Positions 81 through 37,580 of a stretch of DNA of 64,000 nt are shown in pieces (the first letter of the stretch is position 1; each line of letters begins with the position of its first letter). The stretch spans positions 59,966 through 123,965 of the forward strand of contig MTON01000022.1 in the NCBI GenBank assembly GCA_002010665.1. The letters are read 5' to 3'. The position numbers were made by a program, and so were the translations under genes. Under the pieces are notes generated by a model. The model made no database searches and was not told where the DNA came from. It saw only the letters and a list, made by a program, of their open reading frames with translations. The DNA comes from Candidatus Aminicenantes bacterium JdFR-78. Lineage in GTDB: Bacteria; Acidobacteriota; Aminicenantia; JdFR-78.

Positions 81-866
81 TTAAATACGCGATTTTGTAG
101 TTTTTTGGAAATGCTTTTTTATAATTTTAATAGTAGGAGTAATAATCAATAGCTTGATCATCTTTCTTAATATAGCATTTCGTTTGATTATTTCTGCAAT
201 AAAAGGTGATATTTTGTAATAGTTTCTAATTAAGCATCTACCAATCGCTTTTTTAGACAAATGAAAGTCTCGAAATTGTTTTAAGAGTAAGACTTCAGGA
301 GCATACGAAGAACCATATACAGCGGTGGCAATAAAACACATTCCTCCTTTTTTCTCCTTTAATTTCTCAAGTTTTTTAGCAGCATCCATCCCAATAGGGT
401 CGTCTACACCCAATAGGTTAACTGCCTGTTCAAAATTTTCAATTGCCTTCTCCTTCTCTCCCCATACTTGATACAGTCCTCCTAAATAGTATCTCACAAA
501 TCCTTGAATCTCTTTATTTGAAGTAAGTCTTAGCGCTTCTTCATAGCAAGCAATAGCCTCTTTTTTATGGTGAGCAATTCTAGTTATAGGGAATGTTTTG
601 AGTTCGAGATAAATAGCATAAATTCTTCCTTTTACAGCGTTGAGAAAAGCCAATAACTCAGGATCGGAACCAATCTTCTTCTCAATAATCTTACAGTCCC
701 TCAGCATGTCCTCCGCATCTGCTTGGATTCTTCCACCTTCCTCAGATGATATAATTCCTTTTGTAATATCATCGGGACGAAGTGCAAACCATTTTATTTC
801 ATCGAGTTGCTTAGTTATATCCTCTAACATACTTTTTGCTATTTTAATGTTTTGCTCTTCCTTCAT
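81..866 (-). CDS. TPR-repeat protein with C-terminal CFIATAVYGS...LKQFRDF motif and Lys/Ile-rich hydrophobic tail
   Basis: 261-aa ORF; TPR-like helical repeats (AIACYEEALRL, YYLGGLYQVWGEKEKAIENFEQAV); C-terminal block GGMCFIATAVYGSSYAPEVLLLKQFRDFHL followed by a basic/hydrophobic tail resembling a C-terminal sorting-type motif. Confidence 0.6.
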   Translation of the reverse strand: MKEEQNIKIAKSMLEDITKQLDEIKWFALRPDDITKGIISSEEGGRIQADAEDMLRDCKIIEKKIGSDPELLAFLNAVKGRIYAIYLELKTFPITRIAHHKKEAIACYEEALRLTSNKEIQGFVRYYLGGLYQVWGEKEKAIENFEQAVNLLGVDDPIGMDAAKKLEKLKEKKGGMCFIATAVYGSSYAPEVLLLKQFRDFHLSKKAIGRCLIRNYYKISPFIAEIIKRNAILRKMIKLLIITPTIKIIKKHFQKTTKSRI

Positions 867-1737: not shown

Positions 1738-2676
1738 TTAAAATCTGTAAATTACAGAGCCTATAACAATAAACATACTATCTTCCACCATATGGTACAT
1801 TGCAACTACTTCTAAGTTTCTATATGCAATTCCTCCACCAATTCTTGGACCTATTCTAAGTTCAGACCCTGTCTCTTTCCACCACCATACCGTGATCTCT
1901 AATATATCAAGATAAAGTCCTAATCCTCCTTGAGCAAATACAGTAATTGGCTTAATATTAAAATTAAACCTACAGTCACCTGCTCCTATTATTCGTGTCC
2001 ACGAAATATCTGCGTATCCAGCTTCTCTAAAGAAGATATGAGCTTCTAAACTTCCTAAAAGTTCCACATCAAACATGGGCTGACGAACAATTGTGTATCC
2101 ATTGCCTACACTTAATCCCAGTCCGAGTCTGAAAAGTTCTGCCCAGTCGCCTGATGGAAAAGAAAGCCCTAAGCCAGCTCTAAAAGATAATTTTCTCATA
2201 GGCTCTTTTTTGGGAATATAAGTTTTTTGAGGTTCATATTTTTCTCCCATTTCTTTAATTTTTGTTGGCTTTTTAACAGGTTCTTGTATTGGAGGAGTTA
2301 CCTCAGACGGTTTTTCCTCTTTAATCTGTGGAACTTTTGGAATTTCTTCTACTACTTCCACTACGCTCTCATGGATATATCCAGAGACAACAAATCCATA
2401 TTCATCAGGGGGTAAATTAACTCTATACCATTCGCCGAATTTTCCTTCTGATTCTAAAATTGCACCAAGAGGAACTTTTGAAATAATCTGACTGTTTAAT
2501 GAAGGCTTTAATCTAACATTAGCTTTATCCACTATTACTCGAACTTTTAAATTCCCCGCCTGAATTATTCCCCAAAAAAATAATAAAAAAACAAGCAATA
2601 AAGTGACGGAAATTGTTATCTGATTTGAATTTTTCTGTTTCATTTTTCCTCCCTCAATTTCACACTTACCCTCCAT
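1738..2676 (-). CDS. SH3b-domain protein with C-terminal outer-membrane beta-barrel-like region
   Basis: 312-aa ORF; N-terminal hydrophobic signal/anchor, SH3b-like segment (GEWYRVNLPPDEYGFVVSGYIHESV), Pro/Lys/Glu-rich linker, amphipathic beta-strand C-region ending VIYRF (aromatic C-terminus typical of OMPs). Confidence 0.5.
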   Translation of the reverse strand: MEGKCEIEGGKMKQKNSNQITISVTLLLVFLLFFWGIIQAGNLKVRVIVDKANVRLKPSLNSQIISKVPLGAILESEGKFGEWYRVNLPPDEYGFVVSGYIHESVVEVVEEIPKVPQIKEEKPSEVTPPIQEPVKKPTKIKEMGEKYEPQKTYIPKKEPMRKLSFRAGLGLSFPSGDWAELFRLGLGLSVGNGYTIVRQPMFDVELLGSLEAHIFFREAGYADISWTRIIGAGDCRFNFNIKPITVFAQGGLGLYLDILEITVWWWKETGSELRIGPRIGGGIAYRNLEVVAMYHMVEDSMFIVIGSVIYRF

Positions 2677-3302: not shown

Positions 3303-3575
3303 TTTTTCACTTAATTAAATCTATAGATCAATGTGAATAAATTTTCTATTTGAATAAAAATTTAGAATTTTAATATTGCTTTTCACTATAGTAGACTCAA
3401 AAATAGTAAATTTTTTTCCTCTTTCGGTAATAAGATATATTTAACAAAGAAATCCAAAAATAAATTTGGAACTTATTTTACAAAATTAAATTTTCTGAGA
3501 TAATTATGGGTTGAAATGAATTTAAAATTTATCTATATTGATATTAAGCAGAAATTAATCTTAATCGATTTCTAA

Positions 3576-4121
3576 ATGGATCTAAAAAAATTTATTAAAA
3601 CTAAACAATTCGTTGAAGAAATTTCAAATTCTATAAAAGTTATACTTTTGAAGACCTTTCCTGAAATAACTCGAGAGGAAAAGGAAGATATAGCCCAAGA
3701 AGTTAAATTAAAAATTTGGAAAATGATTTCGAGTGGGAAAAAAATTAAGAATTTAAAGTCTTATTTATGGAAGGTTGTTTATACAACTGCTCTAGACATT
3801 ATAAAAGAGAGGGAAAATAAAGTGTCTCTGGAAAAGCTAATTGTAAATAACAAGTCAAATCCACTATCTCAATTTGAGATTATCACCTCTAAGTCAACCC
3901 TCAATAAAAAGGAATTAAAACTGATTATGCAAAAGGCAATAAATTCTCTTCCACAAAATAGAAGAGTAGTAATAAAACTTCACTTGGCAGGAATGAGTTT
4001 TGAAGAAATGGCTGAATTTTTAAAATGGAGTGAGAATAAAGTAAGACATTTGTATTATAGAGGGTTGAAAGATTTAAAGGAAAAATTGAAAGAATATGGA
4101 ATAACTAATTATGAATTTTGA
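3576..4121 (+). CDS. ECF-type RNA polymerase sigma-70 factor
   Basis: 181 aa; sigma-70 region 4 HTH (RRVVIKLHLAGMSFEEMAEFLKWSENKVRHLYYRGLKDLKEKL); followed 22 nt later by an anti-sigma gene. Confidence 0.75.
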   Translation: MDLKKFIKTKQFVEEISNSIKVILLKTFPEITREEKEDIAQEVKLKIWKMISSGKKIKNLKSYLWKVVYTTALDIIKERENKVSLEKLIVNNKSNPLSQFEIITSKSTLNKKELKLIMQKAINSLPQNRRVVIKLHLAGMSFEEMAEFLKWSENKVRHLYYRGLKDLKEKLKEYGITNYEF

Positions 4122-4142
4122 GTTTTTAATTTTTAATTTCGA

Positions 4143-4853
4143 ATGAAGGAGTTGATAATGGGATTATTTAATAGAAATTTAGAAAATAAGTGTCTTGATA
4201 AGGATGTTTTTATCAAAACATTCTTAGATGAAATCAGTGTGGATGAGAAAGAAAAATTGATTGACCATGTCTTAACCTGTGAAAAATGCAGACATAAATT
4301 TAAAATTATGAAAGAGTTAATGAATGAACTTGCTAAAATACGAGGTGATTTAGAAAATATAGAACTTTCCCAAAATGAGATCAAACAATTTAGAAAATTA
4401 GCCAAGGAGAGGATAGGAGAAATTCAAAAAAGGGAGAGAAGAACTATTCTCAATTTTATGCCAATTAAAAATGCTTTAATTTTTACTGGTCTGATAATAA
4501 TGATTTTAGGTACATATCTTTTGGTTTCACGATTTCATCAAAAGGAAGTTTATAGGGAAGCAGGAACAAAGCAGTTAGAATTACTTGAGCCTATAGGAAG
4601 AATATCAAAATCTCCTGTGGCTTTTATATGGACCTATTTGGAAGAAGCAGAAGGAGGACATTACAAATTCAAGTTGATTGATGACGAACTAAATACAATA
4701 TGGGAAACAGGAACAAAAACTAATAGATTGACTCTCCCTGAAAATGTTAGGAAAAAATTAAAGAAAGGTAGAATTTACATCTGGAAAGTAGAAGCTTATA
4801 GTGATGATGGGCGAAAAATAGATTCAAAATCCAACTATTTTGAGATAAAGTAA
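4143..4853 (+). CDS. ZAS-type (HxxxCxxC) single-pass anti-sigma factor
   Basis: 236 aa; N-terminal HVLTCEKC zinc motif; one TM helix (LIFTGLIIMILGTYLLV); extracytoplasmic C-domain ending RIYIWKVEA...; gene position immediately after the ECF sigma. Confidence 0.65.
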   Translation: MKELIMGLFNRNLENKCLDKDVFIKTFLDEISVDEKEKLIDHVLTCEKCRHKFKIMKELMNELAKIRGDLENIELSQNEIKQFRKLAKERIGEIQKRERRTILNFMPIKNALIFTGLIIMILGTYLLVSRFHQKEVYREAGTKQLELLEPIGRISKSPVAFIWTYLEEAEGGHYKFKLIDDELNTIWETGTKTNRLTLPENVRKKLKKGRIYIWKVEAYSDDGRKIDSKSNYFEIK

Positions 4854-4865
4854 ATTAAAATAATG

Positions 4866-7454
4866 TTAAAAATGGAATAATTTTTCTAAAAAAGAGGGCT
4901 TTGATATTTTGATTGAAGAATTATAATCGCCGATTAGAATAAAGGGTGCCCAATAATAAGGGTGCTTATATCTTGAATTTAGCATTTTTAATTTAGTTTG
5001 TCTTAAAGCCTGTGTCTTTGTTTTACCTTGAGCTAAATATTGATAGAAATATTTCATAAATTTTACAGTTGATTTATCATTAACATTCCATAAGCTTGAT
5101 ATAACTGATTTTGCTCCTGCACAAAGGAAAGCACGAGACATTCCAATTATTCCTTCGCCCTTTTCTAATTTTCCTTTAGCTGTCTGACAAGCGGAAAGAA
5201 CAACCAAATCTGCATTTAATCTTAAATTATAAATTTCTCTGACCTGAAGAAGCCCATCTTCACCAAATTCTTTTTCTTTAGAAAATACTAAGGCTGACCT
5301 CCACCAGTTTTCATTATCCAGCAAACCATGTGTAGCAATATGGATTATTTTAAAATCATTTAATTTTAATTTTTTTATATTTGTTTCTGTAGCGTTTTCT
5401 TTTAAGAATAATTTTTGAAGGTCTTTCTTGAAAAATCGTGAAATTGATTTGATCTCTTTATAAGCAAAAGAAAGCGGAAAAAATTTAAATTTTTTAATGT
5501 AATACTGTTTGTAATATAAGCTTAAATCACCAGTAATAAGTTGAGTATTCTTTGAGAGTAAAGGTGAACCCATTGCTAATAACTCTTTTTCTCTCTTCTT
5601 ATCAAATTTTCTCTCTAAAAGGCGAGTTAAAGAAGAAGCTGAATAGGCGTAGGATATTTCATATTCTTCAATCAAAAATTTTGAGTTTTGATTTTTGAAT
5701 TTTGATGGAATAAAGGTTTCAAAAGGCAAGTAATATAAATTTTTATCTGGAATAATGATTATTTTTTGTATTTTATTTAAATAATTTTCAAAAGGCTCAA
5801 TAAGCAATTTATATAATTTTCTTCCGCCCTTTATTCCTTTGAATTCTTTTGTTTCTTTAACAATTAAAAAATTAATATAATTATTAATCATTTCAATAAG
5901 GGAAAAAGGTTCAATTAAACGTGCCATATATACATTCTTTTTGGTTAATAAAAGAGCAAATGAGTAATTTTCACCTATAAGGTATTCGAGAAGTGCTGTA
6001 TTATTGCCCAGTAATTTTTTTTGAATTTGTTCTAATTTAAAAGGTTTAGAAGGCAAAAGATCGCGGAATAATAAATTTTTTCTTTTTATTTTAATTATTA
6101 AACTTTTATATTTTTCTTCTTTTTGTCTGAGTTCTTTTAAAAGCCTCTTTCTTTGCTCAGAGGGAAGTTCTCTTTGCAGTTTATTTATAATTAGAGAAAT
6201 TTCCTGAGAAATTTTATCTCTGAGTTTTTGATATTTATAATTTAAATTTTTCTTAATTACTATCTCTGCTTCTTGTAAGCTATCAAGAAATGCTCTTGCT
6301 TTTGTCCTTTCTACTAAATAAAAAGCTTTTTTAATGTAATTTTTCTTAGAATTTTTCTTATAAAGTTTAAATAGCAAATTTATTGCTAATTCATAAATTT
6401 GCAATTTATCTTTTAAAAATCCAGATTTATATTCCGCTAAAGGCAATTTTTTTCGGATTTTTTCAATTATTTCTATCGCTCTATTACAAAAATCAAGAGC
6501 TTCTAAAAATTTTCCCATATTTTTATAGATTAATGCTAATCCATAATATGAATGTAAAATAATTTCCTTAGAATTTGTTTTTTTCCCAATAATAAGAGCT
6601 ATTTTATAAAATCCTTCTGCCTTTGAATAATTCTTTAATTTAAAATAGATGTCTCCTACAATATTAAAAGTTAATCCTTCAACTGCACTATTGCGTTTTG
6701 AATTATTTTGATTATTTATTTTTGATATCATCAAAGGGTCAATTTGATTGTCATATACCAAAGAGTCAAGTATAAAAACATCAGGACTTAAATTAATTTC
6801 ATTTGTCCTTGGAGGTAACTGTGGTGTAGAGCTTTTTATAATTATTTTTTTACAATTCCATATTTTTGTTTTTCTAACATTGAAGTAAAAATGATTTGAC
6901 CCAGAAAAAGCAGTTGAACAATTTGTTATTAAAGATTCCTCAATTTCCAATCCAAAGGCATCATTTGTACTAAAAGCGCTTGAACAATTGTCAATAATAA
7001 CATTATATAAATAACCCCGTCCGATATTTTTAAAAGCATCATTTATTGAGATTGCAGCTCTTTGCATATTTAAAATAGCTAAGTCATGAGCAATCCATTT
7101 AACATCCGGACTGAATCTTTGAAGTATTCCTATCCCAGCATTTTTTAAAATAAATCCTTGGATTTCTGCTTCAGCTTTGACTATGAATATAGCACTCCGT
7201 TGATCTCCAGAACCGTCTAACACTGCACCATACAAATTTTTAGATCTTAAAATAATTTTTTTATTAATTATTATATTTCTTTCAAAATAAAACCCGTCAT
7301 CTACTTCTATTATGTCTCCATGTTGGGAAACTTTTATAGCCCCTTTTATGGTCGGATAATTATGGGGTACATTTATGATGGTAGAGTAAAGGAATGAAAC
7401 CGAAATTATCATTATAACAATTATTATAATTATTGAGATTAATAAACCCTTCAC
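4866..7454 (-). CDS. membrane-anchored beta-helix / TPR / CHAT-domain (caspase-like) protein
   Basis: 862 aa (GTG start); N-terminal TM anchor; parallel beta-helix-like repeats (KGAIKVSQHGDIIEVDDGFYFERNIIINKKIILRS); central TPR-like repeats; C-terminal CHAT domain with His/Cys dyad context (HIATHGLLD ... LVVLSACQTAKG). Confidence 0.75.
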   Translation of the reverse strand: MKGLLISIIIIIVIMIISVSFLYSTIINVPHNYPTIKGAIKVSQHGDIIEVDDGFYFERNIIINKKIILRSKNLYGAVLDGSGDQRSAIFIVKAEAEIQGFILKNAGIGILQRFSPDVKWIAHDLAILNMQRAAISINDAFKNIGRGYLYNVIIDNCSSAFSTNDAFGLEIEESLITNCSTAFSGSNHFYFNVRKTKIWNCKKIIIKSSTPQLPPRTNEINLSPDVFILDSLVYDNQIDPLMISKINNQNNSKRNSAVEGLTFNIVGDIYFKLKNYSKAEGFYKIALIIGKKTNSKEIILHSYYGLALIYKNMGKFLEALDFCNRAIEIIEKIRKKLPLAEYKSGFLKDKLQIYELAINLLFKLYKKNSKKNYIKKAFYLVERTKARAFLDSLQEAEIVIKKNLNYKYQKLRDKISQEISLIINKLQRELPSEQRKRLLKELRQKEEKYKSLIIKIKRKNLLFRDLLPSKPFKLEQIQKKLLGNNTALLEYLIGENYSFALLLTKKNVYMARLIEPFSLIEMINNYINFLIVKETKEFKGIKGGRKLYKLLIEPFENYLNKIQKIIIIPDKNLYYLPFETFIPSKFKNQNSKFLIEEYEISYAYSASSLTRLLERKFDKKREKELLAMGSPLLSKNTQLITGDLSLYYKQYYIKKFKFFPLSFAYKEIKSISRFFKKDLQKLFLKENATETNIKKLKLNDFKIIHIATHGLLDNENWWRSALVFSKEKEFGEDGLLQVREIYNLRLNADLVVLSACQTAKGKLEKGEGIIGMSRAFLCAGAKSVISSLWNVNDKSTVKFMKYFYQYLAQGKTKTQALRQTKLKMLNSRYKHPYYWAPFILIGDYNSSIKISKPSFLEKLFHF

Positions 7455-7586
7455 CTTTCTCTTATTATTTATTTGATTTCTTTTACTGTGTCAAGCATTT
7501 TAGTTCTATTATTTAATTCGATATAAAAGTAAATTTTTCTTGACATTTAAGGTTAAATTGATTATTGGTAACAGGGAGGAGGAAAA

Positions 7587-8861
7587 ATGATGAGAAAAAT
7601 TGGGAAAAAAATTCTTTATTTATTAATTGGGTTATGTGCTTTAACTTCATTAAATTTTGGTTCAGGTTTTTTAATTTATGAATTTGGAACTGCAGCCACA
7701 GCTCAAGCGGGTGCTTTTGTTGCACGCGCCTATGATCCATCCGCTATTTTCTATAATCCTGCTGGTCTTGGCTGGCTCACAGGAACTCAGGTATCGTTTG
7801 GAACCACTTTAATCCTGCCCTCAAATTCTGTAACTCTTCCATACTATCCTGATCCAACCTGGCAAAGTGTTGATGGAGAAAAACAAGTTTTTTATCCTTC
7901 TCATGTTTATCTCACGCACCAATTAAACGACAAAATAGTATTTGGAATAGGCGTACATTCTCCCTATGGACTTGGAACAAAATGGCCAAAGGATTTTCCA
8001 TTGAGATTTATCGCCTATTATACAAATATGAAAAGCTTCTTCATTAATCCAACTATTGCATATAAGGTGAATGAGAAATTCTCAATTGGATTTGGTTTGA
8101 GTTACATTTATTCTGATATAACAATTAGAAGAAAAAGTATAGCAGACTTATCAATGTATGGAGGACCTTCTTCATTTGAGTTTGGAATTGAATTAAAAGG
8201 GAAAGAAACATCAGCCTTTGGTGTTAATTTTGGAATTCTCTATAAGGAAGAAAAATGGTCAGTGGGTCTTGCTTATAGAAGTAGAGCAACCCTTGGATTT
8301 GAAGGAAATATAAATTATGAACTTCCTTATCAATTACCACCTCCTCTAAATTTAGCATTCACTGAAATGGAAGGTTCTGCTGATATGCCTCTGCCGGACA
8401 TAATCACTGGTGGAGTAGCTTTCAAACCAACTGACGGATTAGAAGTTGAAGTTGATGTTCAATACACTATCTGGTCTGTTTACGATAAACTCGAGATTTA
8501 CGGAGATGGAGAAAAACTCGATGAAGTAGAAGAGAACTGGAAAGATTCAATCATTTTCAGAGTTGGTGCAGAATATATGCTCAATGAGAAGGTTGCTTTA
8601 AGATTCGGCTATCTGTATGACCAGACTCCCCAACCAGTTGAAACAATGGACCCCATGCTCCCTGATGCAGATCGTCATGGCTTTACAGCAGGAATCGGAT
8701 ATAAAATGAATAACTTGATAATAGATTTTGCCTACTATTATGAGCTCTTTAAAGATAGAGAGTGCCCGAATAGAAACATATACTTCCCATTCAATTGGGC
8801 CACAGGGACCTATTCTACTTCTGCACATTTGATTGGAATTACCTTTACTTATAAATTTTAA
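7587..8861 (+). CDS. outer-membrane transport protein, FadL/OmpP1/TodX family
   Basis: 424 aa; signal peptide; family N-terminal signature YEFGTAATAQAGAFVARAYDPSAIFYNPAGL; C-terminal ...TFTYKF. Confidence 0.75.
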   Translation: MMRKIGKKILYLLIGLCALTSLNFGSGFLIYEFGTAATAQAGAFVARAYDPSAIFYNPAGLGWLTGTQVSFGTTLILPSNSVTLPYYPDPTWQSVDGEKQVFYPSHVYLTHQLNDKIVFGIGVHSPYGLGTKWPKDFPLRFIAYYTNMKSFFINPTIAYKVNEKFSIGFGLSYIYSDITIRRKSIADLSMYGGPSSFEFGIELKGKETSAFGVNFGILYKEEKWSVGLAYRSRATLGFEGNINYELPYQLPPPLNLAFTEMEGSADMPLPDIITGGVAFKPTDGLEVEVDVQYTIWSVYDKLEIYGDGEKLDEVEENWKDSIIFRVGAEYMLNEKVALRFGYLYDQTPQPVETMDPMLPDADRHGFTAGIGYKMNNLIIDFAYYYELFKDRECPNRNIYFPFNWATGTYSTSAHLIGITFTYKF

Positions 8862-8906: not shown

Positions 8907-9491
8907 TTGATATTTTTGTATGAGAAGTTTATTGATCCCCTTTTAAGTGATATAAGAAAGAAAATCTATGAGATAATAGATAAGTCATCCACAGTAATTG
9001 ATATTGGTTTTGGAACAGGTGCTCTTGCATTTGAATTAGCGGATAAATGCAAAAAAGTAGTAGGTATTGAAACTTCAGAAAAATTAGTAAAACACGCTTC
9101 TTCTCTAAAGGAAAAGAAAGGAATCAATAATGTAGAATTTTTTCTTTCAAATCAAACTAAAAGTAAATTACCAGTAAAAAAATTTGATTATAGTGTATCA
9201 TCCATGGTCCTTCATACAATTTGTGAAGAAGAAAGAATCCCTTTTTTAAATAGGATTAAATCTTTTGCCATAAAAATAATTCTTGTAGATTATGAAATCC
9301 CTCTTCCTAAAAATTCAACCAGTATTACAATAAAAACGATAGAATTTATTGCAGGAAGGAGACATTTTTTAAATTTTAAATCCTTTATTAAAAATGGGGG
9401 CTTATATCCTCTTATTGAAGAAACTGGCTTAAAAATTGAAGAAAAATATTTTTTTATGAATGGAGCTATAGTGCTATTAAAGATTGGCTAA
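8907..9491 (+). CDS. class I SAM-dependent methyltransferase
   Basis: 194 aa; motif I VIDIGFGTGALAFELA; acidic motif II VVGIETSE. Confidence 0.65.
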   Translation: MIFLYEKFIDPLLSDIRKKIYEIIDKSSTVIDIGFGTGALAFELADKCKKVVGIETSEKLVKHASSLKEKKGINNVEFFLSNQTKSKLPVKKFDYSVSSMVLHTICEEERIPFLNRIKSFAIKIILVDYEIPLPKNSTSITIKTIEFIAGRRHFLNFKSFIKNGGLYPLIEETGLKIEEKYFFMNGAIVLLKIG

Positions 9492-11236
9492 TCATTCCCT
9501 TTTAAATTTTCTATTAATTTCCTTACTTCTTTTTCCTTTTCCTTTCCATATTCAAGATATTTCTCCAAATATTTTATTGCTTTCTCCTTGTCCCCGAGTC
9601 CCATATAGAGTTTCCCCAATCTATAATAACAATAAGCTTCAGTTGGTGCTATTTTAAGTGCTTTATGATAATACTTAATTGCTTTTTCAATTTCTCCTGT
9701 TTGAGAATAAAGGTCTCCGAGTGAAATATAAGCCATCAAAGAAGGTCCCTTTTTCACAACAATAACATCTATCCTAAGACCTGACTTTGAACCTTTAACT
9801 GCTGTCTTTTCTCTTTCTTTTTTGTCATATTTTATAGCTTTTTTAAATTCCTCTTCTGCTTTCTTAAAATCCCGCATGTTAAAATATACACATCCTAAAT
9901 TGTAATGTCCAATTGCATCTTCTGGGTCAATTTCGATCACCTTTTTAAAAGCCAAAAGAGCTTGCTCAAGATCTCCTTTTCTGAAATAAATATTTCCAAG
10001 AAGATCATATGCTCTTAAAAAATCATTTCCCCTTTTCAGAGCCAATTCAAAATTCCATTCCTGACTTGAAAGCACGCCTTTAACAGCCATCAGAGCATAT
10101 TTTTCTGCTTCTGAATAATTCTTGATATTGAAATACATTAATGCAAGATTATAATTCATCTCGAGAGAATATGGATCTATTTCCACAGCCTTCTTGAGTT
10201 TTATAATTGCTTCCAATACCCTTCCTCTTCCCAACAGGTCAATTGCGACATTATTTATATTCTGGAGTACATATTTTTTATCATTTTTTAATTGATAATA
10301 ATATTCGATAACAGGATTATCTACGAAATTTTTAATAGGATTTAATTTCTCAGGACAATTTTCTGGTTTAGGATTCTCACAGCATTGAATATAAAATTTT
10401 ATTTTTTCATTTTCTGATGAAATGTCAAGAGCCTCTTTAAAATAAGCTTTTGCAATTTCAAAGTTTTTAAGATTATAATTTATAAAACCTAGATTCAAAA
10501 GAGCATCATAAAAATTTAATTTCATTTTTAGCGCTTCTTCCAAGAACTGGATGGAAGGATAAATCTCTTCATTTTTATAACTTCTTAGAGCCTCCATAAA
10601 AAGAAACTGAGGGTGAACCCCGTGAAATTGTACTGCCTCTTTTAAAGTCCTTTTATACTCTGACAAATTGTTCTGTGAAAGATAAATGTCAAGAAGCTGA
10701 GTATAACTGGAAACTGGATTATATCCAATACAAAGTGCTTTTTTAAAATATTTTTCTGCATCTTCAAAATTTTTTCTTTTTTTAAAACAAAATCCCAAAA
10801 TAAAGAATCTAAGACCTGAATTTAAACTTTTATTTTCTGACTTTATCTCAATATTATATTCTCTAAGACATTGAAATATCTTATCTTTTCTTTTTCCTTT
10901 GTATAGAATAAAAAATAAAAGGTCCATTGCATCTTCATTTTTTGGAAACATGAACAATTCCTCTTCAAGATAATCAATTGATTTCTCATACATAGATGGT
11001 AATTTAGTCTGTTCCCAGAGCTTAAAATAGCTATATGCAATATCCTTTCTTATATCTTGCTGATAAGGATTTTCCTTTAAACCTTTAAGATAGTAATCAA
11101 TTGCTGGTCTGTACTCTCGCATATCAAGAAAGAGATTAGCTTTCTCAAGCGCGGTACTTTCTCCTGTTTGAGAATAAACAACAAATATTAACAAAAAGGT
11201 AAGAAAAAATATATATAAAAATTTTTTAAAAATCAT
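9488..11236 (-). CDS. secreted TPR-repeat protein (distal gene of GT2-FtsX-RND operon)
   Basis: 582 aa; signal peptide; many 34-residue TPR units (AIDYYLKGLKENPYQ, AKAYFKEALDISSEN, ALLAFKKVIEIDPED, AIKYYHKALKIAPTE); its start overlaps the RND gene stop by 4 nt. Confidence 0.7.
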   Translation of the reverse strand: MIFKKFLYIFFLTFLLIFVVYSQTGESTALEKANLFLDMREYRPAIDYYLKGLKENPYQQDIRKDIAYSYFKLWEQTKLPSMYEKSIDYLEEELFMFPKNEDAMDLLFFILYKGKRKDKIFQCLREYNIEIKSENKSLNSGLRFFILGFCFKKRKNFEDAEKYFKKALCIGYNPVSSYTQLLDIYLSQNNLSEYKRTLKEAVQFHGVHPQFLFMEALRSYKNEEIYPSIQFLEEALKMKLNFYDALLNLGFINYNLKNFEIAKAYFKEALDISSENEKIKFYIQCCENPKPENCPEKLNPIKNFVDNPVIEYYYQLKNDKKYVLQNINNVAIDLLGRGRVLEAIIKLKKAVEIDPYSLEMNYNLALMYFNIKNYSEAEKYALMAVKGVLSSQEWNFELALKRGNDFLRAYDLLGNIYFRKGDLEQALLAFKKVIEIDPEDAIGHYNLGCVYFNMRDFKKAEEEFKKAIKYDKKEREKTAVKGSKSGLRIDVIVVKKGPSLMAYISLGDLYSQTGEIEKAIKYYHKALKIAPTEAYCYYRLGKLYMGLGDKEKAIKYLEKYLEYGKEKEKEVRKLIENLKGND

Positions 11237-14200
11237 TTCTTTCTTTTTTCCACCAACTCATAGAAAAGTGGAATTAAAATAAGGGTTAGGAATGTAGCCA
11301 GGAGCAAACCTCCAATTACTGATATAGCCAAGGGTTTTTGTAATTCTGAACCTGGCCCAAGTCCTATTGCCATTGGCAATAACCCAAAAGCAGTTGTAAC
11401 TGTAGTCATAAGAATTGGTCTTAATCTTACCCGACTTGCTTCTTTTACAGCTTCCCTTAAAGACAGTCCTTTCCTTCTCAACTGATTGGTATAGTCAATT
11501 TTTACAATAGCGTCATTAACAACAATGCCAGCGAGAACAACCATCCCAATAATTGAAATCACATTTATAGTTTGCCGTGTTAGAATAAGTGCCCATATAG
11601 AACCAGTGAGTCCCATTGGAAGTGTGAACATTATCAGAAAAGGATGAATTAAAGATTCAAATTGAGCAGCCATAATCATATAGACAAGAAACGCTGCCAG
11701 TATAAATGCGAAAATTAAACTTCTAAAAGACTTTTGGATTTCTTCTTGTTCACCCCCAAATGAGATACTATAATTTGGAGGTAATGAGATTTCATTTATC
11801 TTGTTTTTAATTTCAGGTATTACTTCACTTATTTTCTTTCCCAATAAATTTGCTGTTATTGATATTATTCTTTGCTGATTCTCCCTTCTAATCTCCTCAG
11901 GTCCACGAACTACTTCATAAGAGATTAAATCCCGAAGGGGAATTAAAGAATTATTAAAGACGAAATTTTTCCCGAGTATCTCATCAATCTCATCAATTGA
12001 ATTTTTCTCCATTCTAACAAGAATATCGTATTTTCTTTCAAATTCTTTAAATTTAGTAGCTATCTTTCCTCTTATGGAATTTACAATAAAATTTCCCACT
12101 TCTCCTGGCGATATTCCATATTTTTCTATTGAATTTCTCTTCAATTTTATAAGAAATTGAGGCTTCCCCTGTTTATAAGAAGTACTTATATCTGCTAATC
12201 CCTCAATATTTTCCAATTTCTCAACCAATTGATTCGCAATGGAATTCAGTTTATCCAAATCATCTCCTTTTATTATAAGGCTTAACTCTTTACCACCTAT
12301 CGCAAGCATTTCAGATAGGGTAGTTTGTTGCTGTACAATTGAAAAGTCAATTTCAGGAAACCTGCTAAGTTTTGTCCTCAATTCTTTTATTACCCTTTGA
12401 ACATCCGAATGGCTTAAAAGCCTACAAAGAATTTTTGCTGAATTTACAGAAACTCTTGGATCATAAGCCTGCATTCCAGTTACAATTCCTATTTGAGAAA
12501 AAATTGTTTCCACAGAGCTATCACTTTTCAACCACTTCTCAATAATTGAAACAATTTCTTCTGTCTGTTCCAGGGAAAAATCTACTGGCGTGGTCAAATT
12601 TATCTCAAATGTATTGGTTTTTGGTTTTGGTATTAATTCTCTCCCTATTTGAGTCCCAGCTAAGAAAGTTATGACAAGAAAAAGAAGAGAACCTGTGAGT
12701 ACTTTACCTTTATTATTGAGACTCCAATCAAGAAATCTATGATAAAAAACTGAAAATCCAGAGTAAATTTTATTAAACGTATTAAAGACGAATCTTATTA
12801 TTGGTCTAATGGGCACCATTAAATAGTGGAGAATTAATAGAATGAACTGAGTTAAATATGAAATTAAAAAGTCTATAACAAAATAAATCCCTTTAAATAT
12901 CCATCTCATAAGCCAAAGCAAACCATAATACGGGAATAGTAAAGGTTTCTTCGCTTTCCTGATTTCTTTTTTTTCAACTCTTTCTTCTTTTATTTCAAAT
13001 TTAAATTCTCTTGAAGCTAACATTGGAAGAAGCGTAAGAGAAACAAACAGGGAACACAACAGAGAAAATGTTACTGTAAGAGCTTGATCTTTAAATAATT
13101 GGCCAGCAACTCCATGCACATAAATTACTGGAAGAAATACAGAAATAGTAGTTAAAGTAGAAGCTGTAACAGCCATTCCAACTTCTTTTGTGCCAATATA
13201 TGCTGCCTCTATTAAATTTCCTTTTTCTTTCTGGTGCCTAAATATGCTTTCAGACACAACAATTGAACTATCCACAAGCATTCCAACACCCAGAGCAAGC
13301 CCTCCAAGGGACATAATATTCAGTGATATATTGCTGAAATATAGAATATTAAAGGTTGCAATAATAGAAATTGGAATCGAAATAGCAATGATTACTGGAG
13401 TTCTTAAATCTTGGAGGAAAAGAAATAAAACAAAAAATGCAAGTATTGCACCGATTATAATTGAATTTAAAACTGAATTTATTGAATTTTCAATGAATTC
13501 TGCCTGTTCCATTATAACTTCCAGATTTATTTGTGGATTTTCTTCTCTTATTTGTTTAAGAACTTCTCTTGTTTTCTTTGTTACTTTAACCGTATTTGTA
13601 CCTGATTCTTTATAGACGAGCAAACCTATACTCTCTTTCCCATTCAGCCTTGTTAACCCTAATCTTTCTTTTATTGAATCTTTGATAAAAGCTATATCTT
13701 TTAATCTTATTACTCCACCTGGCACTGTTTTAAGAGGAATGTTACCTATCTCGTCTATTGACTCAAACTCTCCAACAACTCTTATTGCATATTTAAATCT
13801 TCCTTTCCTAATTGTTCCTCCTTGTAAATTTCTATTAAAGGAGTCTATTTTTCGTGCAATTTCATCTATGGATAGCTGATAGAGAGAAAGAAGTTCTGGT
13901 TTAATTTCTACCTGAATTTCTCGCTCGACTCCTCCAGCAATTTCAACAGATGCAATTCCTTCAATTTGTTCAAGTCGGGGTTTTATAAGTTCCTCTGCAA
14001 ATTCTTTTAATTCTACAAGACTTCTTTCCCCAGATAAGGCTAATATCATAATTGGTTTGCTTTGAGGGTCAAGAAGAATAATTGTTGGTCTTCCAGCATC
14101 TTCTGGTAAAGAGTATCTTGCATTATCAAGTTTCTCTCTTGTATGGAGAATAGCAAAATCCATATCAGTTCCCCAGTCAAATTCAAGAGTCATAAAGGAA

Positions 14201-14463
14201 ACACCCTCTTTTGAAATGGATTCTACTTTTCTTAAACCAGGAATTGTACTCACCACTGCCTCAAGAGGAGAGGTAATTAATGTCTCAATTTCCTCTGGTG
14301 CTACACCTGGATACTCTGTAATTACTGATATTTTTGGATAACTTATATCTGGGAGTAAATCAACACTCAATTCTCGAAGGGAAACAAACCCGAGAAGAAC
14401 AATTGCTAAAAAGAACATAAAAGTCGTTACAGGACGATTAATTGTTAATTTTGTTATTTTCAT
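11233..14463 (-). CDS. RND superfamily transporter, AcrB/HAE1-like
   Basis: 1076 aa; 12-TM RND architecture with two large periplasmic loops; AcrB-like motifs (LGGLALGVGMLVDSSIVVSESIF; GIVVNDAIVKIDY); extended central loop. Confidence 0.85.
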   Translation of the reverse strand: MKITKLTINRPVTTFMFFLAIVLLGFVSLRELSVDLLPDISYPKISVITEYPGVAPEEIETLITSPLEAVVSTIPGLRKVESISKEGVSFMTLEFDWGTDMDFAILHTREKLDNARYSLPEDAGRPTIILLDPQSKPIMILALSGERSLVELKEFAEELIKPRLEQIEGIASVEIAGGVEREIQVEIKPELLSLYQLSIDEIARKIDSFNRNLQGGTIRKGRFKYAIRVVGEFESIDEIGNIPLKTVPGGVIRLKDIAFIKDSIKERLGLTRLNGKESIGLLVYKESGTNTVKVTKKTREVLKQIREENPQINLEVIMEQAEFIENSINSVLNSIIIGAILAFFVLFLFLQDLRTPVIIAISIPISIIATFNILYFSNISLNIMSLGGLALGVGMLVDSSIVVSESIFRHQKEKGNLIEAAYIGTKEVGMAVTASTLTTISVFLPVIYVHGVAGQLFKDQALTVTFSLLCSLFVSLTLLPMLASREFKFEIKEERVEKKEIRKAKKPLLFPYYGLLWLMRWIFKGIYFVIDFLISYLTQFILLILHYLMVPIRPIIRFVFNTFNKIYSGFSVFYHRFLDWSLNNKGKVLTGSLLFLVITFLAGTQIGRELIPKPKTNTFEINLTTPVDFSLEQTEEIVSIIEKWLKSDSSVETIFSQIGIVTGMQAYDPRVSVNSAKILCRLLSHSDVQRVIKELRTKLSRFPEIDFSIVQQQTTLSEMLAIGGKELSLIIKGDDLDKLNSIANQLVEKLENIEGLADISTSYKQGKPQFLIKLKRNSIEKYGISPGEVGNFIVNSIRGKIATKFKEFERKYDILVRMEKNSIDEIDEILGKNFVFNNSLIPLRDLISYEVVRGPEEIRRENQQRIISITANLLGKKISEVIPEIKNKINEISLPPNYSISFGGEQEEIQKSFRSLIFAFILAAFLVYMIMAAQFESLIHPFLIMFTLPMGLTGSIWALILTRQTINVISIIGMVVLAGIVVNDAIVKIDYTNQLRRKGLSLREAVKEASRVRLRPILMTTVTTAFGLLPMAIGLGPGSELQKPLAISVIGGLLLATFLTLILIPLFYELVEKRKK

Positions 14464-35563: not shown

Positions 35564-35944
35564 CTATTCAACCCAAATTTTCACTGTTTCATTTTCTTCA
35601 TTTATTTCAATCAAACAGAGAGGACCTAATTTTTTTAATTCATAAAAAAACTTCTTTAATTCTATCTTACAATTATCCTCCATTCGAAACTTAGCTTCAG
35701 GACAGGAATTCACAATCAATTCCATGAGTGAAATTGGAATAGTGATTCTAACCTTCGGCTTCTGAGTTCTGGTATCAACTACTAAAATTTTGAACCATTT
35801 TACTTCTTCTCTCTTTATTTTCTCCTTTCCAATAGCCTTTTTAATAATCTTGTAATCTTCCTTTGAAGGGGAATTTAAAACCGAGGACAAACTAACACTA
35901 TAAACAAGACCAAGAATTAAAATAAAAAGAGATAATTTTTTCAT
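35564..35944 (-). CDS. secreted protein carrying the shared ~65-aa IW(I/V/L)E C-terminal domain
   Basis: 126 aa; signal peptide; C-terminus KVRITIPISLMELIVNS...LGPLCLIEINEENETVKIWVE aligns to the C-termini of the 35941-36795 and 38166-38588 products. Confidence 0.5.
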   Translation of the reverse strand: MKKLSLFILILGLVYSVSLSSVLNSPSKEDYKIIKKAIGKEKIKREEVKWFKILVVDTRTQKPKVRITIPISLMELIVNSCPEAKFRMEDNCKIELKKFFYELKKLGPLCLIEINEENETVKIWVE

Positions 35945-36795
35945 GGTAAATCCTCCTTTTTTATTTTCTCAATCCAGATTTTAATAATTTCTTTTTCGTC
36001 CTCTATTTCAATTGAAAGTCCAGAAGATAAATCTTTAAGAATTTTATCTATATCATAGCCCTTTTCTCTAATAATTTCCTTCTGTTTGTCAGAAAGAGCT
36101 TTAAATGCTAAATCAGCCAAGGAGAAAGGAATATTTATCGATACTACTGGCTTACTCTTCCCTTTTTCATAAACTCTAATTTTTAATATTTCTTTCTTAT
36201 ATTCTTCTTTCTCCTGAATTTCTTTTAGTAAATACGGGTCTATTCGTAGAAGAGCTATTTTTGCCCTGTCTTTCAATTCCTCATTCCTCTCTTTTGAGAT
36301 AATTTCCTTAAGAATTGGAACACCTTTTTTTGCTATTTTTTTATCCTTGAAATAACTGAACTTAAAGGCAGTATAATATCGAACTAATTTATTTGGACTT
36401 TTTAAATAACCTTCTAATTTTTTAAAATATCCCGTGTAACCTTCATGATACAAATCAAACATTATATCAATTATTGATATCTCAGCTTCTTCTTTTAAAT
36501 TTTTATTTTTATTTACTTTTATAAATTCTTCATATGTGCTTAGAGCCTCTTTCCTCTTCCCGAGTTCCTCAAGACATTTCCCTTTATAAAAGAGAGCAAT
36601 TGAATAATACCTGCTGTTTCTGTAATTCCTTAATAATTCATTTAATTTTTTAAGAGCTTTTTCCCACTCTTCATCGAACATCAAAATCTTGGCTTGATTT
36701 AGCAATTCCTTATCTTTTGATTGGGATAAGGAAGAGAAGCCGAGTATAAAGTTAACCATAAAGAGAATTAATGTGAAAATTATTATTTTCCTCAT
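35941..36795 (-). CDS. secreted TPR protein with the shared IW(I/V/L)E C-terminal domain
   Basis: 284 aa; signal peptide; TPR-like helices; C-terminus VVSINIPFSLADLAFKALS...GLSIEIEDEKEIIKIWIE. Confidence 0.55.
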   Translation of the reverse strand: MRKIIIFTLILFMVNFILGFSSLSQSKDKELLNQAKILMFDEEWEKALKKLNELLRNYRNSRYYSIALFYKGKCLEELGKRKEALSTYEEFIKVNKNKNLKEEAEISIIDIMFDLYHEGYTGYFKKLEGYLKSPNKLVRYYTAFKFSYFKDKKIAKKGVPILKEIISKERNEELKDRAKIALLRIDPYLLKEIQEKEEYKKEILKIRVYEKGKSKPVVSINIPFSLADLAFKALSDKQKEIIREKGYDIDKILKDLSSGLSIEIEDEKEIIKIWIEKIKKEDLP

Positions 36796-36806
36796 TTTCC
36801 CCTCAT

Positions 36807-37580
36807 TTAACTTAATTCTTTTTCAATTAGTCTGATTCTAAATAGTAATTGTTCTTTTTCTATAATTTGTTGAATTTTCTTAATATTTTCAAAATCAGGT
36901 TGTTCTTTCAACTGAATAACATCATAAAATAGAAATTCTATTTGATTGCAAATTCTCCTCGCCTTCATTAAACTCAAACTATCCAGTTTTTCATCGAAAT
37001 ATTTTTTTTGAATCAAAAGGTCTTTTGCCCTTTTTGAGGTAAGATCAATTGTCCATGGATCAACTTCCTCTGGTGAGGTGAATTTCATTAAATCCGTAAG
37101 CAATAACTGACTTTGTTTTAAATATTCAACTGTTTCTTTCCTTGCGACAGAATATTCCATATTTTCAAAAGAGGATGACGAAACAAAAAATTCATTCTTT
37201 GCAAAATGTTTTTTCGACCAGGGTTGAAATAGAATTAATATTGTTATTCCTATTATGATAATTAAGGATATAACTGCAGTTAAAATCGGATTTAATTTCA
37301 TGATTTTAAGGTGATACACCCTTTTCTCACGGATAATCTCTCTCTCAATTCTTCTCATAATCATTGAAGGAATATTTTCCCAGTTAATTGTATTTATTGT
37401 TTCATTAATTTCCCTTTTATTATCTTCCAGATTTTCAAATAAAATTTTTAAATTTTTAAATTCTTTGAAACAGTCCTCACATTCTTTCAAGTGATTTTTT
37501 ACAAAATTAATTTTCTTATACGACAATTCTTCAAGATAAAATGAAATCAATAATTTTCTAATTTTTCTGCATTTTCTCAT
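36807..37580 (-). CDS. ZAS-type anti-sigma factor, single-pass membrane
   Basis: 257 aa; HLKECEDC (HxxxCxxC) near N-terminus; TM helix (ILTAVISLIIIIGITILILF); overlaps the ECF sigma gene by 23 nt. Confidence 0.65.
   Translation of the reverse strand: MRKCRKIRKLLISFYLEELSYKKINFVKNHLKECEDCFKEFKNLKILFENLEDNKREINETINTINWENIPSMIMRRIEREIIREKRVYHLKIMKLNPILTAVISLIIIIGITILILFQPWSKKHFAKNEFFVSSSSFENMEYSVARKETVEYLKQSQLLLTDLMKFTSPEEVDPWTIDLTSKRAKDLLIQKKYFDEKLDSLSLMKARRICNQIEFLFYDVIQLKEQPDFENIKKIQQIIEKEQLLFRIRLIEKELS

What the first reader, a model, noticed from the sequence alone, without database searches (positions are those of the whole stretch)
3576..7454. ZAS ECF sigma/anti-sigma pair convergent with a membrane-anchored beta-helix/TPR/CHAT protease
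Seen in sequence: ECF sigma (3576-4121) and a HxxxCxxC anti-sigma (4143-4853) end 12 bp from the stop of an 862-aa protein on the opposite strand. That protein has an N-terminal TM anchor, pectin-lyase-like beta-helix repeats, TPR repeats and a C-terminal CHAT domain (HIATHG ... LSACQTAKG His/Cys context). Established knowledge: CHAT domains are caspase-like proteases used in CBASS, type III CRISPR (Csx29) and other signalling cascades. Topology would place the CHAT domain on the same side of the membrane as the anti-sigma C-domain. Inference: the CHAT protease may act as a regulated protease for this anti-sigma, or be an effector of the ECF regulon. A divergent FadL-family OMP gene shares its upstream region.
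Basis: partly seen in the sequence, partly recalled or inferred. Interest (0 to 1): 0.5.

Follow-up and report, generated by a model that had tools for sequence, protein, structure and literature searches.

The report
Sigma/anti-sigma pair with exported CHAT protease
An Aminicenantes bacterium encodes a stress-type sigma factor, its zinc-binding membrane anti-sigma factor and an exported caspase-like (CHAT) protease as one strictly conserved gene trio, which looks like a split, probably trans-acting version of the single-protein DdvA anti-sigma/CHAT sensor known from Myxococcus.

Summary
They are an ECF sigma (3576-4121), a CHCC-zinc anti-sigma with one TM helix and a periplasmic FN3-like domain (4143-4853), and, 12 bp away on the other strand, an 862-aa exported protein (4866-7454). 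That protein has a polysaccharide-lyase-type beta-helix, a TPR-like solenoid and a CHAT domain whose His/Cys dyad is invariant.

The linkage is not chance. All 16 testable beta-helix-CHAT orthologues have the same convergent anti-sigma and sigma. All 4 anti-sigma homologues picked without regard to context have a convergent TPR-CHAT. A larger sister subfamily swaps the beta-helix for extra TPRs. No other neighbour is conserved with the trio, including FadL.

The closest knowns are DdvA/DdvS (anti-sigma fused to a periplasmic TPR-CHAT) and Csx29/Csx30/CASP-sigma.

The best model (about 0.45) is that the CHAT protein is a trans-acting sensor and site-1 protease. It would cut the anti-sigma in its flexible juxtamembrane linker, where a single Arg (R138) is conserved. 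Cleavage is inferred, not shown.

"Membrane-anchored" is doubtful, because orthologues carry ordinary signal peptides. The "effector of the regulon" reading gets no promoter support in this subfamily, but some support in the sister one.

Verdict: new variant of a known kind, moderate interest.

The parts
3511..3539 (+). sigma-70-like promoter candidate (TTGAAA-N17-TATATT) upstream of the sigma gene
   Evidence: Listed by the consensus scan. The same TTGAAA/TTGACA-N17-TATATT-like element sits upstream of sigma in orthologous loci L085, L001, L006, L004, L007 and L088. Function is inferred.
3576..4121 (+). ECF (group 4) sigma factor, 181 aa
   Evidence: TIGR02937 at 66.2 bits (cut-off 42.9), Sigma70_r4_2 at 1.3e-10, Sigma70_r2 weak. 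Nearest solved relatives are RpoE and SigW.
4143..4853 (+). single-pass anti-sigma factor, 236 aa (NCBI calls it from M6, 231 aa)
   Evidence: The family alignment and AF2 model (pLDDT 84.9) show an N-terminal helical zinc-binding domain, a TM helix, a flexible linker and a C-terminal beta-sandwich. There is no Pfam family. All database relatives are named 'hypothetical'.
4191..4289 (+). CHCC zinc-site residues C17, H42, C46, C49 (ZAS motif H-x3-C-x2-C)
   Evidence: Invariant in A2 and A3; among the 168 representatives C17 is present in 165 and H42/C46/C49 in all 168. The best PDB sequence hit of the family profile is the DdvA N-terminal ZAS domain 8rlz_A (E=0.048, weak), then RsiW.
4464..4541 (+). 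transmembrane helix of the anti-sigma (residues about 108-133)
   Evidence: AF2 helix 108-133, a hydrophobic stretch in all homologues, and basic residues on the N-terminal side.
4542..4580 (+). flexible juxtamembrane linker (residues 134-146) with conserved R138 (4554-4556), the candidate cleavage or recognition site
   Evidence: pLDDT is below 50 at residues 135-140. R138 is present in 137 of 168 representatives, while flanking positions 130-144 are variable. Cleavage is inferred.
4581..4850 (+). periplasmic FN3/Ig-like beta-sandwich of the anti-sigma (residues 147-236)
   Evidence: pLDDT >90. Foldseek hits: CopC 5icu at 3.6e-5 and FN3 domains at about 1e-3. The profile also hits tandem fn3 repeats in giant proteins. 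W163, P199 and W214 are invariant.
4866..7454 (-). exported beta-helix / TPR-like / CHAT protein, 862 aa, GTG start
   Evidence: ORF. AF2 pLDDT 85.5, pTM 0.86. There are about 20 full-length orthologues at 31-71% identity.
7389..7454 (-). N-terminal hydrophobic export signal (residues 1-22): signal peptide or signal anchor
   Evidence: AF2 helix 2-21. Orthologues have 12-16-residue h-regions and AXA-like sites. No dedicated predictor was available.
6834..7379 (-). right-handed parallel beta-helix domain (residues 26-207)
6012..6701 (-). TPR-like helical solenoid (residues 252-481)
   Evidence: Pfam TPR_1/2/8/12 at residues 265-333. The region is all-helical in the model. It aligns with the TPR arm of craspase, separase and DdvA.
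4920..5999 (-). CHAT caspase-like protease domain (residues 486-845); H709 at 5328-5330, C756 at 5187-5189
7466..7494 (-). weak sigma-70-like promoter candidate (TTGACA-N17-TAAATA) just upstream of the CHAT gene
   Evidence: Read from the sequence. L085 has TTGACT-N17-TAAATA at the same place. It was not listed by the consensus scan because the -10 ends in A. Function is inferred.

Best explanation
The three genes form one envelope signalling module.

The ECF sigma is held at the inner membrane by the cytoplasmic CHCC-zinc domain of the anti-sigma. The anti-sigma exposes an FN3-like domain in the periplasm, joined to the membrane by a short flexible linker.

The convergently encoded protein is exported to the same compartment. 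It acts as a separate sensor-protease. Its N-terminal head, here a polysaccharide-lyase-type beta-helix and in the sister subfamily extra TPRs, binds the cue, plausibly a glycan or envelope polymer. The TPR arm docks the FN3 domain. The activated CHAT His709/Cys756 site then cuts the anti-sigma in the juxtamembrane linker; the candidate site is after R138.

Removing the periplasmic domain would license intramembrane (site-2) proteolysis and release sigma. This is the mechanism proposed for DdvA autoproteolysis, but performed in trans.

Shown here: domain identities, topology logic, an intact dyad, strict gene linkage, and a conserved Arg in a disordered linker.

Inferred: physical interaction, cleavage, the cleavage site, the ligand, and the involvement of a site-2 protease.
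For: Linkage:
- All 16 testable distinct beta-helix-CHAT genes have a convergent anti-sigma homologue at -78 to +44 bp, followed by sigma. In L085 the gap is 664 bp because a toxin-antitoxin pair is inserted.
- Flanking genes differ between loci.
- Reciprocally, all 4 anti-sigma homologues taken from long contigs have sigma upstream and a convergent TPR-CHAT.
- 80 further TPR-CHAT genes lie within 2.5 kb of such a pair.

Catalytic competence: H705, H709 and C756 are kept in every complete CHAT ORF.

Same compartment: signal-peptide-like N-termini occur throughout the family, and the anti-sigma model runs ZAS, TM, linker, beta-sandwich.

Candidate site: R138 is found in 137 of 168 representatives, inside an otherwise variable segment with pLDDT below 50.

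Modular head: the beta-helix and the extra TPRs are swapped on a constant TPR-CHAT core that is paired with the same anti-sigma family.

Precedents:
- DdvA is a CHCC-ZAS anti-sigma with a periplasmic TPR-CHAT, proposed to self-cleave its linker before RseP acts (PMC11506125).
- DdvA is the only CHAT hit in the PDB by sequence and a top fold hit.
- Csx29 TPR-CHAT cleaves Csx30, an inhibitor of an ECF-like sigma (PMC10028731).

Promoters: in this subfamily both the sigma operon and the CHAT gene have sigma-70-like, not ECF-type, promoters. This fits a constitutively present sensor rather than an induced effector.
Against: - There is no experimental or structural evidence of an interaction or of cleavage. 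No complex model could be made.
- Convergent, not operonic, organisation means co-expression is not guaranteed.
- In the sister subfamily, 7 of 20 convergent CHAT genes carry an ECF-type promoter (GAGAA-N16-18-CGTCT) resembling the one upstream of sigma. There, CHAT is probably a regulon member. This is compatible with feedback but equally with an output role.
- The conserved Arg could be structural or a membrane-proximal 'snorkelling' residue.
- CHAT proteases characterised so far have diverse P1 preferences (PMC11506125), so Arg specificity is a guess.
- Beta-helix proteins are often secreted beyond the outer membrane. If that happens here, the protease would not meet the anti-sigma.
- In the closest relative (L085/L086) the anti-sigma reading frame is broken while CHAT is intact.
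Confidence: 0.45

Rival explanations
1. The CHAT protein is an output of the system, not its trigger. Sigma, once released by some other signal sensed by the FN3 domain, drives or boosts expression of an exported protease/glycan-binding enzyme that remodels or defends the envelope. The tight linkage reflects regulon membership.
For: In the sister subfamily, GAGAA-N16-18-CGTCT lies upstream of 7 of 20 convergent CHAT genes. It shares its -35 element and spacing with the conserved TGAGAA-N19-TCTAT promoter upstream of sigma. It is absent from 16 upstream CHAT paralogues and 92 orphan TPR-CHAT genes. ECF regulons commonly include neighbouring genes, and authors note that regulators and targets are hard to tell apart from context (PMC7826278).
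Against: None of 14 beta-helix-type CHAT genes, including the window's, has this motif. They carry sigma-70-like promoters instead. An effector role does not explain why the partner is always this one anti-sigma family with an FN3 domain and a conserved linker Arg. Being in the regulon and acting on the anti-sigma are not mutually exclusive.
Confidence: 0.22
2. The two periplasmic proteins bind, but the anti-sigma is not the substrate. Either the FN3 domain and linker act as a securin-like pseudosubstrate that keeps the protease inactive, so that sigma reports on protease status, or the CHAT protein is a non-cleaving co-receptor whose ligand-induced movement is passed to the anti-sigma. The true substrates would be other envelope proteins.
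Against: The full catalytic dyad is conserved in every member, which argues for real proteolysis somewhere. A conserved single Arg in a disordered linker is more typical of a processing site than of an inhibitor interface.
Confidence: 0.15
3. It is an anti-phage or anti-invader sensor like DdvA/DdvS. The beta-helix, a tailspike-like fold, or the TPR head recognises a phage component in the periplasm, and sigma switches on defence genes.
For: DdvA/DdvS controls a CBASS/CRISPR island (PMC11506125). The CHAT domain gives a partial hit to the PADLOC BovA model (1.2e-9). The beta-helix resembles phage tailspikes and depolymerases.
Against: No defence genes flank the trio in the window or in related loci. 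The neighbours are envelope and housekeeping genes and differ between loci. There are no PADLOC hits for sigma, anti-sigma or upstream genes. The BovA hit covers only the generic CHAT core. Tailspike similarity is shared with all polysaccharide lyases.
Confidence: 0.08
4. Adjacency without a functional connection: two independent systems that happen to be neighbours.
For: The genes are on opposite strands and are not co-transcribed.
Against: The arrangement is kept in 16 of 16 and 4 of 4 independent tests, across 31-71% protein identity and with changing flanks.
Confidence: 0.02

Closest known systems
DdvA/DdvS of Myxococcus xanthus (transmembrane anti-sigma with periplasmic TPR-CHAT, plus its ECF sigma; PMC11506125, PMC6061681)
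   Same: [quoted passage not shown] A periplasmic TPR-CHAT with a His-Cys dyad. A flexible linker next to the membrane, proposed as the cleavage site before site-2 proteolysis. DdvA (8rot) is the only CHAT protein in the PDB found by sequence, a Foldseek hit at 1e-9, and the best PDB hit of the anti-sigma profile, though weakly.
   Different: Here the TPR-CHAT is a separate, exported protein encoded on the opposite strand. The anti-sigma carries only a roughly 90-residue FN3-like domain. The CHAT protein has an extra beta-helix head. The sigma is not close to DdvS. No CBASS or CRISPR genes are nearby. The host phylum is different (Aminicenantes/Acidobacteriota).
Type III-E CRISPR craspase: Csx29 (TPR-CHAT) / Csx30 / CASP-sigma (PMC10028731)
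   Different: That system is cytoplasmic and RNA-activated through Cas7-11. Csx30 is not a ZAS membrane protein. The window has no cas genes, and the protein here has an export signal and a beta-helix.
Classical regulated intramembrane proteolysis of anti-sigma factors (DegS/RseA/RseP; PrsW/RsiW)
   Same: The logic of a separate periplasmic site-1 protease that senses an envelope cue and clips a single-pass anti-sigma. RsiW is the second-best PDB hit of the anti-sigma profile.
   Different: The site-1 proteases there are serine or metallo-proteases, not caspase-fold CHAT enzymes, and are usually not encoded next to the sigma operon.
ECF54 group (ECF sigmas with carboxypeptidase/subtilase/CHAT neighbours; PMC8999054, PMC7826278)
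   Same: A bioinformatic association of an ECF sigma with CHAT-domain proteins, interpreted as proteolytic control.
   Different: ECF54 is actinobacterial and is described as lacking an anti-sigma. Here a ZAS anti-sigma is always present.
Separase/securin
   Different: Separase is eukaryotic and cytoplasmic/nuclear. The motif resemblance is loose and untested.

Membership tests
ECF (group 4) sigma-70 family | Only sigma2 and sigma4 domains, about 170-200 aa; matches the ECF superfamily model above its cut-off | tested here: met
   TIGR02937 at 66.2 bits against a cut-off of 42.9; Sigma70_r4_2 at 41.2 against 25.7; r2 at 19.6, below 24.
Zinc-binding (ZAS) class I anti-sigma factors | H-x3-C-x2-C motif in an N-terminal helical anti-sigma domain | tested here: met
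   H42, C46 and C49 plus C17 are invariant. The AF2 model has helices at 20-27, 33-45 and 47-71.
Zinc-binding (ZAS) class I anti-sigma factors | Match to the curated zf-HC2 model (PF13490) above its gathering score | tested here: not met
   E=0.094, 13.3 bits against a cut-off of 22.2. The family is too divergent for the Pfam model.
Zinc-binding (ZAS) class I anti-sigma factors | Binds and inhibits the cognate sigma; binds zinc | not testable with these tools
   Inferred from operon position. The anti-sigma start is 21 bp after the sigma stop, and the two overlap in many homologous loci.
CHAT domain / clan CD caspase-like cysteine peptidases | PF12770 match and a conserved catalytic His and Cys | tested here: met
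   264 bits against a cut-off of 24. H709 and C756 are invariant.
TPR-CHAT (separase/craspase/DdvA-type) architecture | A helical TPR-like arm packed on a CHAT protease domain | tested here: met
DdvA-type anti-sigma factors | ZAS domain, TM helix and TPR-CHAT in one polypeptide | tested here: not met
   The anti-sigma is 236 aa and ends in an FN3-like domain. The TPR-CHAT is a separate gene on the other strand.
DdvA-type anti-sigma factors | Controls an adjacent CBASS/CRISPR-Cas defence island | tested here: not met
   There are no defence-model hits for the neighbours. The flanks are envelope or housekeeping genes and vary between loci. The regulon itself is unknown.
Type III-E craspase module | Association with Cas7-11/gRAMP, Csx30 and Csx31; cytoplasmic location | tested here: not met
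   None of these appear in the window neighbourhood. The protein has an N-terminal export signal.
Right-handed parallel beta-helix (pectin-lyase fold) | A three-sheet beta-solenoid fold | tested here: met
Right-handed parallel beta-helix (pectin-lyase fold) | Catalytic residues of a specific lyase or hydrolase family | not tested
   Conserved polar residues exist (D47, E58, Q112, R113, N138, H188) but were not mapped onto any enzyme active site.
Regulated intramembrane proteolysis pathway | A site-2 protease (RseP-type) in the genome, and stepwise cleavage | not tested
   The window was not searched for an RseP homologue, and the rest of the genome was not available.
ECF54 | No anti-sigma factor; Actinobacteria | tested here: not met
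   An anti-sigma is always present. The host is Candidatus Aminicenantes (source names).

The most novel reading that the evidence does not exclude
A free, exported caspase-fold (CHAT) protease acts as the dedicated site-1 protease of a membrane anti-sigma factor. Interchangeable sensor heads (glycan-type beta-helix or TPR arrays) sit on a constant TPR-CHAT core. This would define a widespread periplasmic 'caspase to ECF sigma' signalling pathway in Aminicenantes/Acidobacteriota, with at least 300 anti-sigma clusters at 50% identity. It would also provide the trans-acting system in which the unproven DdvA autoproteolysis mechanism can be reconstituted.
Probability: 0.4. Interest if true: 0.65.

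Novelty: new variant of a known kind. Interest (0 to 1): 0.5.

Why it matters
How periplasmic CHAT domains control ECF sigma factors is unresolved. For DdvA, the only studied case, cleavage has never been observed, because the signal is unknown and protease and substrate are one chain.

Here the protease and the anti-sigma are separate, small enough to express, and come in hundreds of natural variants. Substrate cleavage, the cleavage site (prediction: after R138) and the role of the sensor head can therefore be tested directly by co-expression.

The finding also assigns a likely role to a large family of 'hypothetical' Aminicenantes proteins: ZAS, TM and FN3 anti-sigmas with no Pfam model. 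It further suggests that exported caspase-like proteases are a regular input device of envelope signalling in Acidobacteriota.

Tried and rejected
1. FadL as part of the system. There is no homologue in any of about 170 related loci. Rejected.

2. Other upstream genes as conserved partners (SH3_3 protein, small lipoprotein-like ORFs). The SH3_3 protein recurs only in L001 and the small ORF only in L085. Rejected.

3. An ECF-type promoter upstream of the window's CHAT gene. None was found in 14 beta-helix-type loci. One apparent hit in L017 lies inside a coding region and is a chance match.

4. A defence-island reading. PADLOC gave only a partial generic CHAT hit to BovA.

6. A fused anti-sigma-C-domain/linker/CHAT chimera with a 16-row paired alignment was prepared for a pseudo-complex prediction. 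It was not submitted.

7. Literature. No paper in the held library describes a separate periplasmic CHAT protease paired with a ZAS anti-sigma. The supplements of the ECF classification paper are not held, so its group pages could not be checked.

8. The word-index protein search found only 6-30 anti-sigma relatives. The exhaustive profile search showed that the family is much larger.

Full report
**Observation.** Sigma occupies 3576-4121 (+), the putative anti-sigma 4143-4853 (+), and an 862-aa ORF 4866-7454 (-). The two convergent stop codons are 12 bp apart. A FadL-family gene at 7587-8861 (+) lies divergent from the 862-aa ORF.
- The sigma passes the ECF superfamily model (TIGR02937, 66.2 bits against a cut-off of 42.9).
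- The large protein has a strong CHAT domain (PF12770, 2.2e-78, residues 544-843) and TPR repeats.
- FadL is confirmed (Toluene_X, 7e-68).
- The anti-sigma matches zf-HC2 only weakly (E=0.094). It does carry H42-x3-C46-x2-C49 plus C17, and all four residues are invariant in its family.
- A source name for the identical anti-sigma protein places the window in a Candidatus Aminicenantes MAG.

**Anatomy of the CHAT protein.** An alignment of 20 full-length orthologues (31-71% identity) shows H705, H709 and C756 invariant. The same three residues are kept in every complete CHAT ORF of about 190 related loci.

The "TM anchor" is less secure. The window protein has a 20-residue hydrophobic core, but orthologues have ordinary signal peptides with AXA-like sites. 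The family is exported, and whether it stays tethered is open.

**Anatomy of the anti-sigma.** The model (pLDDT 84.9) shows five parts:
- a helical N-domain carrying the CHCC residues;
- a further helix;
- a TM helix (108-133);
- a low-confidence linker (134-146, pLDDT below 50 at 135-140);
- a well-predicted beta-sandwich (147-235).

The beta-sandwich is FN3/CopC-like. The family profile's best PDB hits are the DdvA zinc domain and RsiW, both weak.

An exhaustive profile search finds 314 clusters at E<=1e-30, almost all 220-260 aa with the same layout. It also hits giant multi-FN3 proteins through the C-domain. None of the family proteins carries a Pfam domain or a name.

In 168 representatives the linker is variable except for one Arg (R138, 137 of 168), usually followed by Gly or Arg.

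**Linkage.** Context was examined in 173 fetched loci, annotated with profiles built in the sandbox.
- All 16 testable distinct beta-helix-CHAT genes have the anti-sigma homologue convergent at -78 to +44 bp, followed by sigma. The seventeenth gene has no flank.
- In one lineage (L085/L086) a PhdYeFM/ParE pair is inserted between the CHAT gene and the anti-sigma.
- Flanking genes differ from locus to locus. FadL has no homologue in any related locus.
- The reciprocal test also holds. Four anti-sigma homologues chosen only for contig length all have sigma upstream and a convergent TPR-CHAT.
- A larger sister subfamily in Aminicenantes pairs the same sigma and anti-sigma families with TPR-CHAT proteins that have extra TPRs in place of the beta-helix. 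A second CHAT paralogue often lies upstream of sigma.
- In all, 80 such genes lie within 2.5 kb of a pair. Cyanobacterial and many other TPR-CHAT genes do not.

**Promoters.** In the sister subfamily a conserved TGAGAA-N19-TCTAT(AT) sits just upstream of sigma, once per locus. A related GAGAA-N16-18-CGTCT lies upstream of 7 of 20 convergent CHAT genes. It is absent upstream of 16 upstream paralogues, 92 orphan TPR-CHAT genes and 14 beta-helix-type CHAT genes. About 4 matches were expected by chance in the whole data set, and 36 were seen. In that subfamily the convergent CHAT gene is therefore probably sigma-dependent.

In the window's own subfamily neither motif occurs. Sigma (3511-3539) and the CHAT gene (7466-7494, minus strand) carry sigma-70-like hexamers instead, and these recur in orthologues. 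These are consensus matches supported by conservation, not proof of function.

**Mechanism.** The data show a three-gene module with both sensor-side proteins in the periplasm, an intact protease, and a conserved basic residue in a flexible juxtamembrane linker.

Two precedents exist. DdvA fuses the same kind of zinc anti-sigma domain to a periplasmic TPR-CHAT and is proposed, but not shown, to cut its own linker before RseP acts (PMC11506125). Csx29 TPR-CHAT demonstrably cleaves Csx30, an inhibitor of an ECF-like sigma (PMC10028731).

I therefore favour a trans-acting version (confidence about 0.45). The exported CHAT protein senses a cue through its exchangeable head, docks the FN3 domain, cuts the linker near R138, and thereby opens the anti-sigma to intramembrane proteolysis.

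The rivals, with my confidence in each, are:
- the CHAT protein as an output of the regulon (0.22), which the sister-subfamily promoter supports and the window subfamily's promoters do not;
- a binding-only or securin-like relationship (0.15);
- a DdvA-like phage-sensing role (0.08), for which there are no defence neighbours and only a generic PADLOC hit;
- chance adjacency (0.02).

That the three genes work together I rate at about 0.9.

**Comparison and novelty.** The locus works like DdvA/DdvS but is not a member of that family. The defining fusion is absent, the sigma is not close to DdvS and no defence island is attached. It is not a craspase module, having no cas genes and being exported. 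It is not ECF54, because an anti-sigma is present and the phylum differs (PMC8999054, PMC7826278).

I found no description of a separate exported CHAT protease paired with a ZAS anti-sigma in the held literature. The ECF classification supplements could not be read.

I rate it a new variant of a known kind, of moderate interest. Its main value is that it separates protease and substrate, which makes the CHAT-to-anti-sigma step directly testable.

Noticed in passing
window 35941-38157 (-): There is a second ECF sigma (37558-38157; Sigma70_r2 1.4e-17, r4_2 3e-13) with an overlapping ZAS anti-sigma (36807-37580; zf-HC2 3.9e-4) and a downstream TPR protein (35941-36795). The anti-sigma has a different, helical periplasmic part, and no CHAT gene is present. 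It is a useful internal contrast to the finding.
   Followed up: partly
L085 8664-9971 and L086 2882-4189 (closest relative, CHAT 71% identical): A PhdYeFM/ParE toxin-antitoxin pair is inserted between the CHAT gene and the anti-sigma. The anti-sigma is split by a frameshift just before its TM helix into a 113-aa ZAS ORF and a 109-aa ORF that starts at the linker. The same state appears in two metagenome assemblies. It could be a pseudogene, an assembly error or a real split; this is not resolved.
   Followed up: partly
sister-subfamily loci, e.g. L011 9972-10003 (-), L014 5665-5696 (-), L016 8940-8971 (+); window equivalent 3724-3757 (+): In 22 loci a GAGAA-N17-CGTCTTAT motif lies inside the sigma ORF, at a fixed 327-336 nt upstream of the anti-sigma start. 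The codon before TCT is TCG, CCG, GCG or ACG, which is four different amino acids, always ending in G. This suggests selection on the DNA itself, perhaps an internal sigma-dependent promoter for the anti-sigma. The window has only a degenerate version, TGGGAA-N17-AGTCT.
   Followed up: partly
sister-subfamily loci L009, L011, L014, L016, L018, L022, L023, L024, L028, L036, L075 and others: A conserved ECF-type promoter candidate, TGAGAA-N19-TCTAT(AT), lies 0-60 nt upstream of the sigma ORF, once per locus. A related GAGAA-N16-18-CGTCT lies upstream of 7 of 20 convergent CHAT genes.
   Followed up: yes
proteins P0135, P0170, P0187, P0207, P0234, P0249, P0259: The anti-sigma profile hits giant proteins (1,500-3,000 aa) through 8-26 tandem copies of its C-domain. 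Pfam calls these repeats fn3, Pur_ac_phosph_N or Ig_Rha78A_N. The anti-sigma C-domain is therefore a divergent FN3 module that current Pfam models miss in the anti-sigma itself.
   Followed up: partly
window 81-866 (-): A 261-aa TPR protein ends in a 'GGMCFIATAVYGSSYAPEV' motif followed by a hydrophobic tail. Pfam annotates only the TPRs.
   Followed up: no
window 1738-2676 (-) and L001 12123-12926 (+): An SH3_3-domain protein with a hydrophobic N-terminus and a long, glycine- and aromatic-rich C-terminal region lies divergent from sigma, both in the window and in the 43%-identity locus L001/L002. It is absent from the other related loci.
   Followed up: partly
window 4143 vs 4158: The database copy of the anti-sigma (P0104, NCBI/JGI) is 231 aa, consistent with a start at Met6, and homologues align from that Met (M6 is nearly invariant). 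The true start is probably 4158, not 4143.
   Followed up: partly
window 4854-4865: No intrinsic-terminator-like hairpin lies between the two convergent stop codons. In several orthologous loci the two ORFs overlap by up to 78 bp. Convergent transcripts would therefore overlap, and antisense interference is possible.
   Followed up: no
window 9488-14463 (-): A 582-aa multi-TPR protein with a hydrophobic N-terminus is followed on the same strand by a 1076-aa ORF that I judge, from its translation only, to be an RND (AcrB-type) efflux pump; no family scan was run on it. It lies about 2 kb from the CHAT gene. Neither was checked for being a conserved pair.
   Followed up: no
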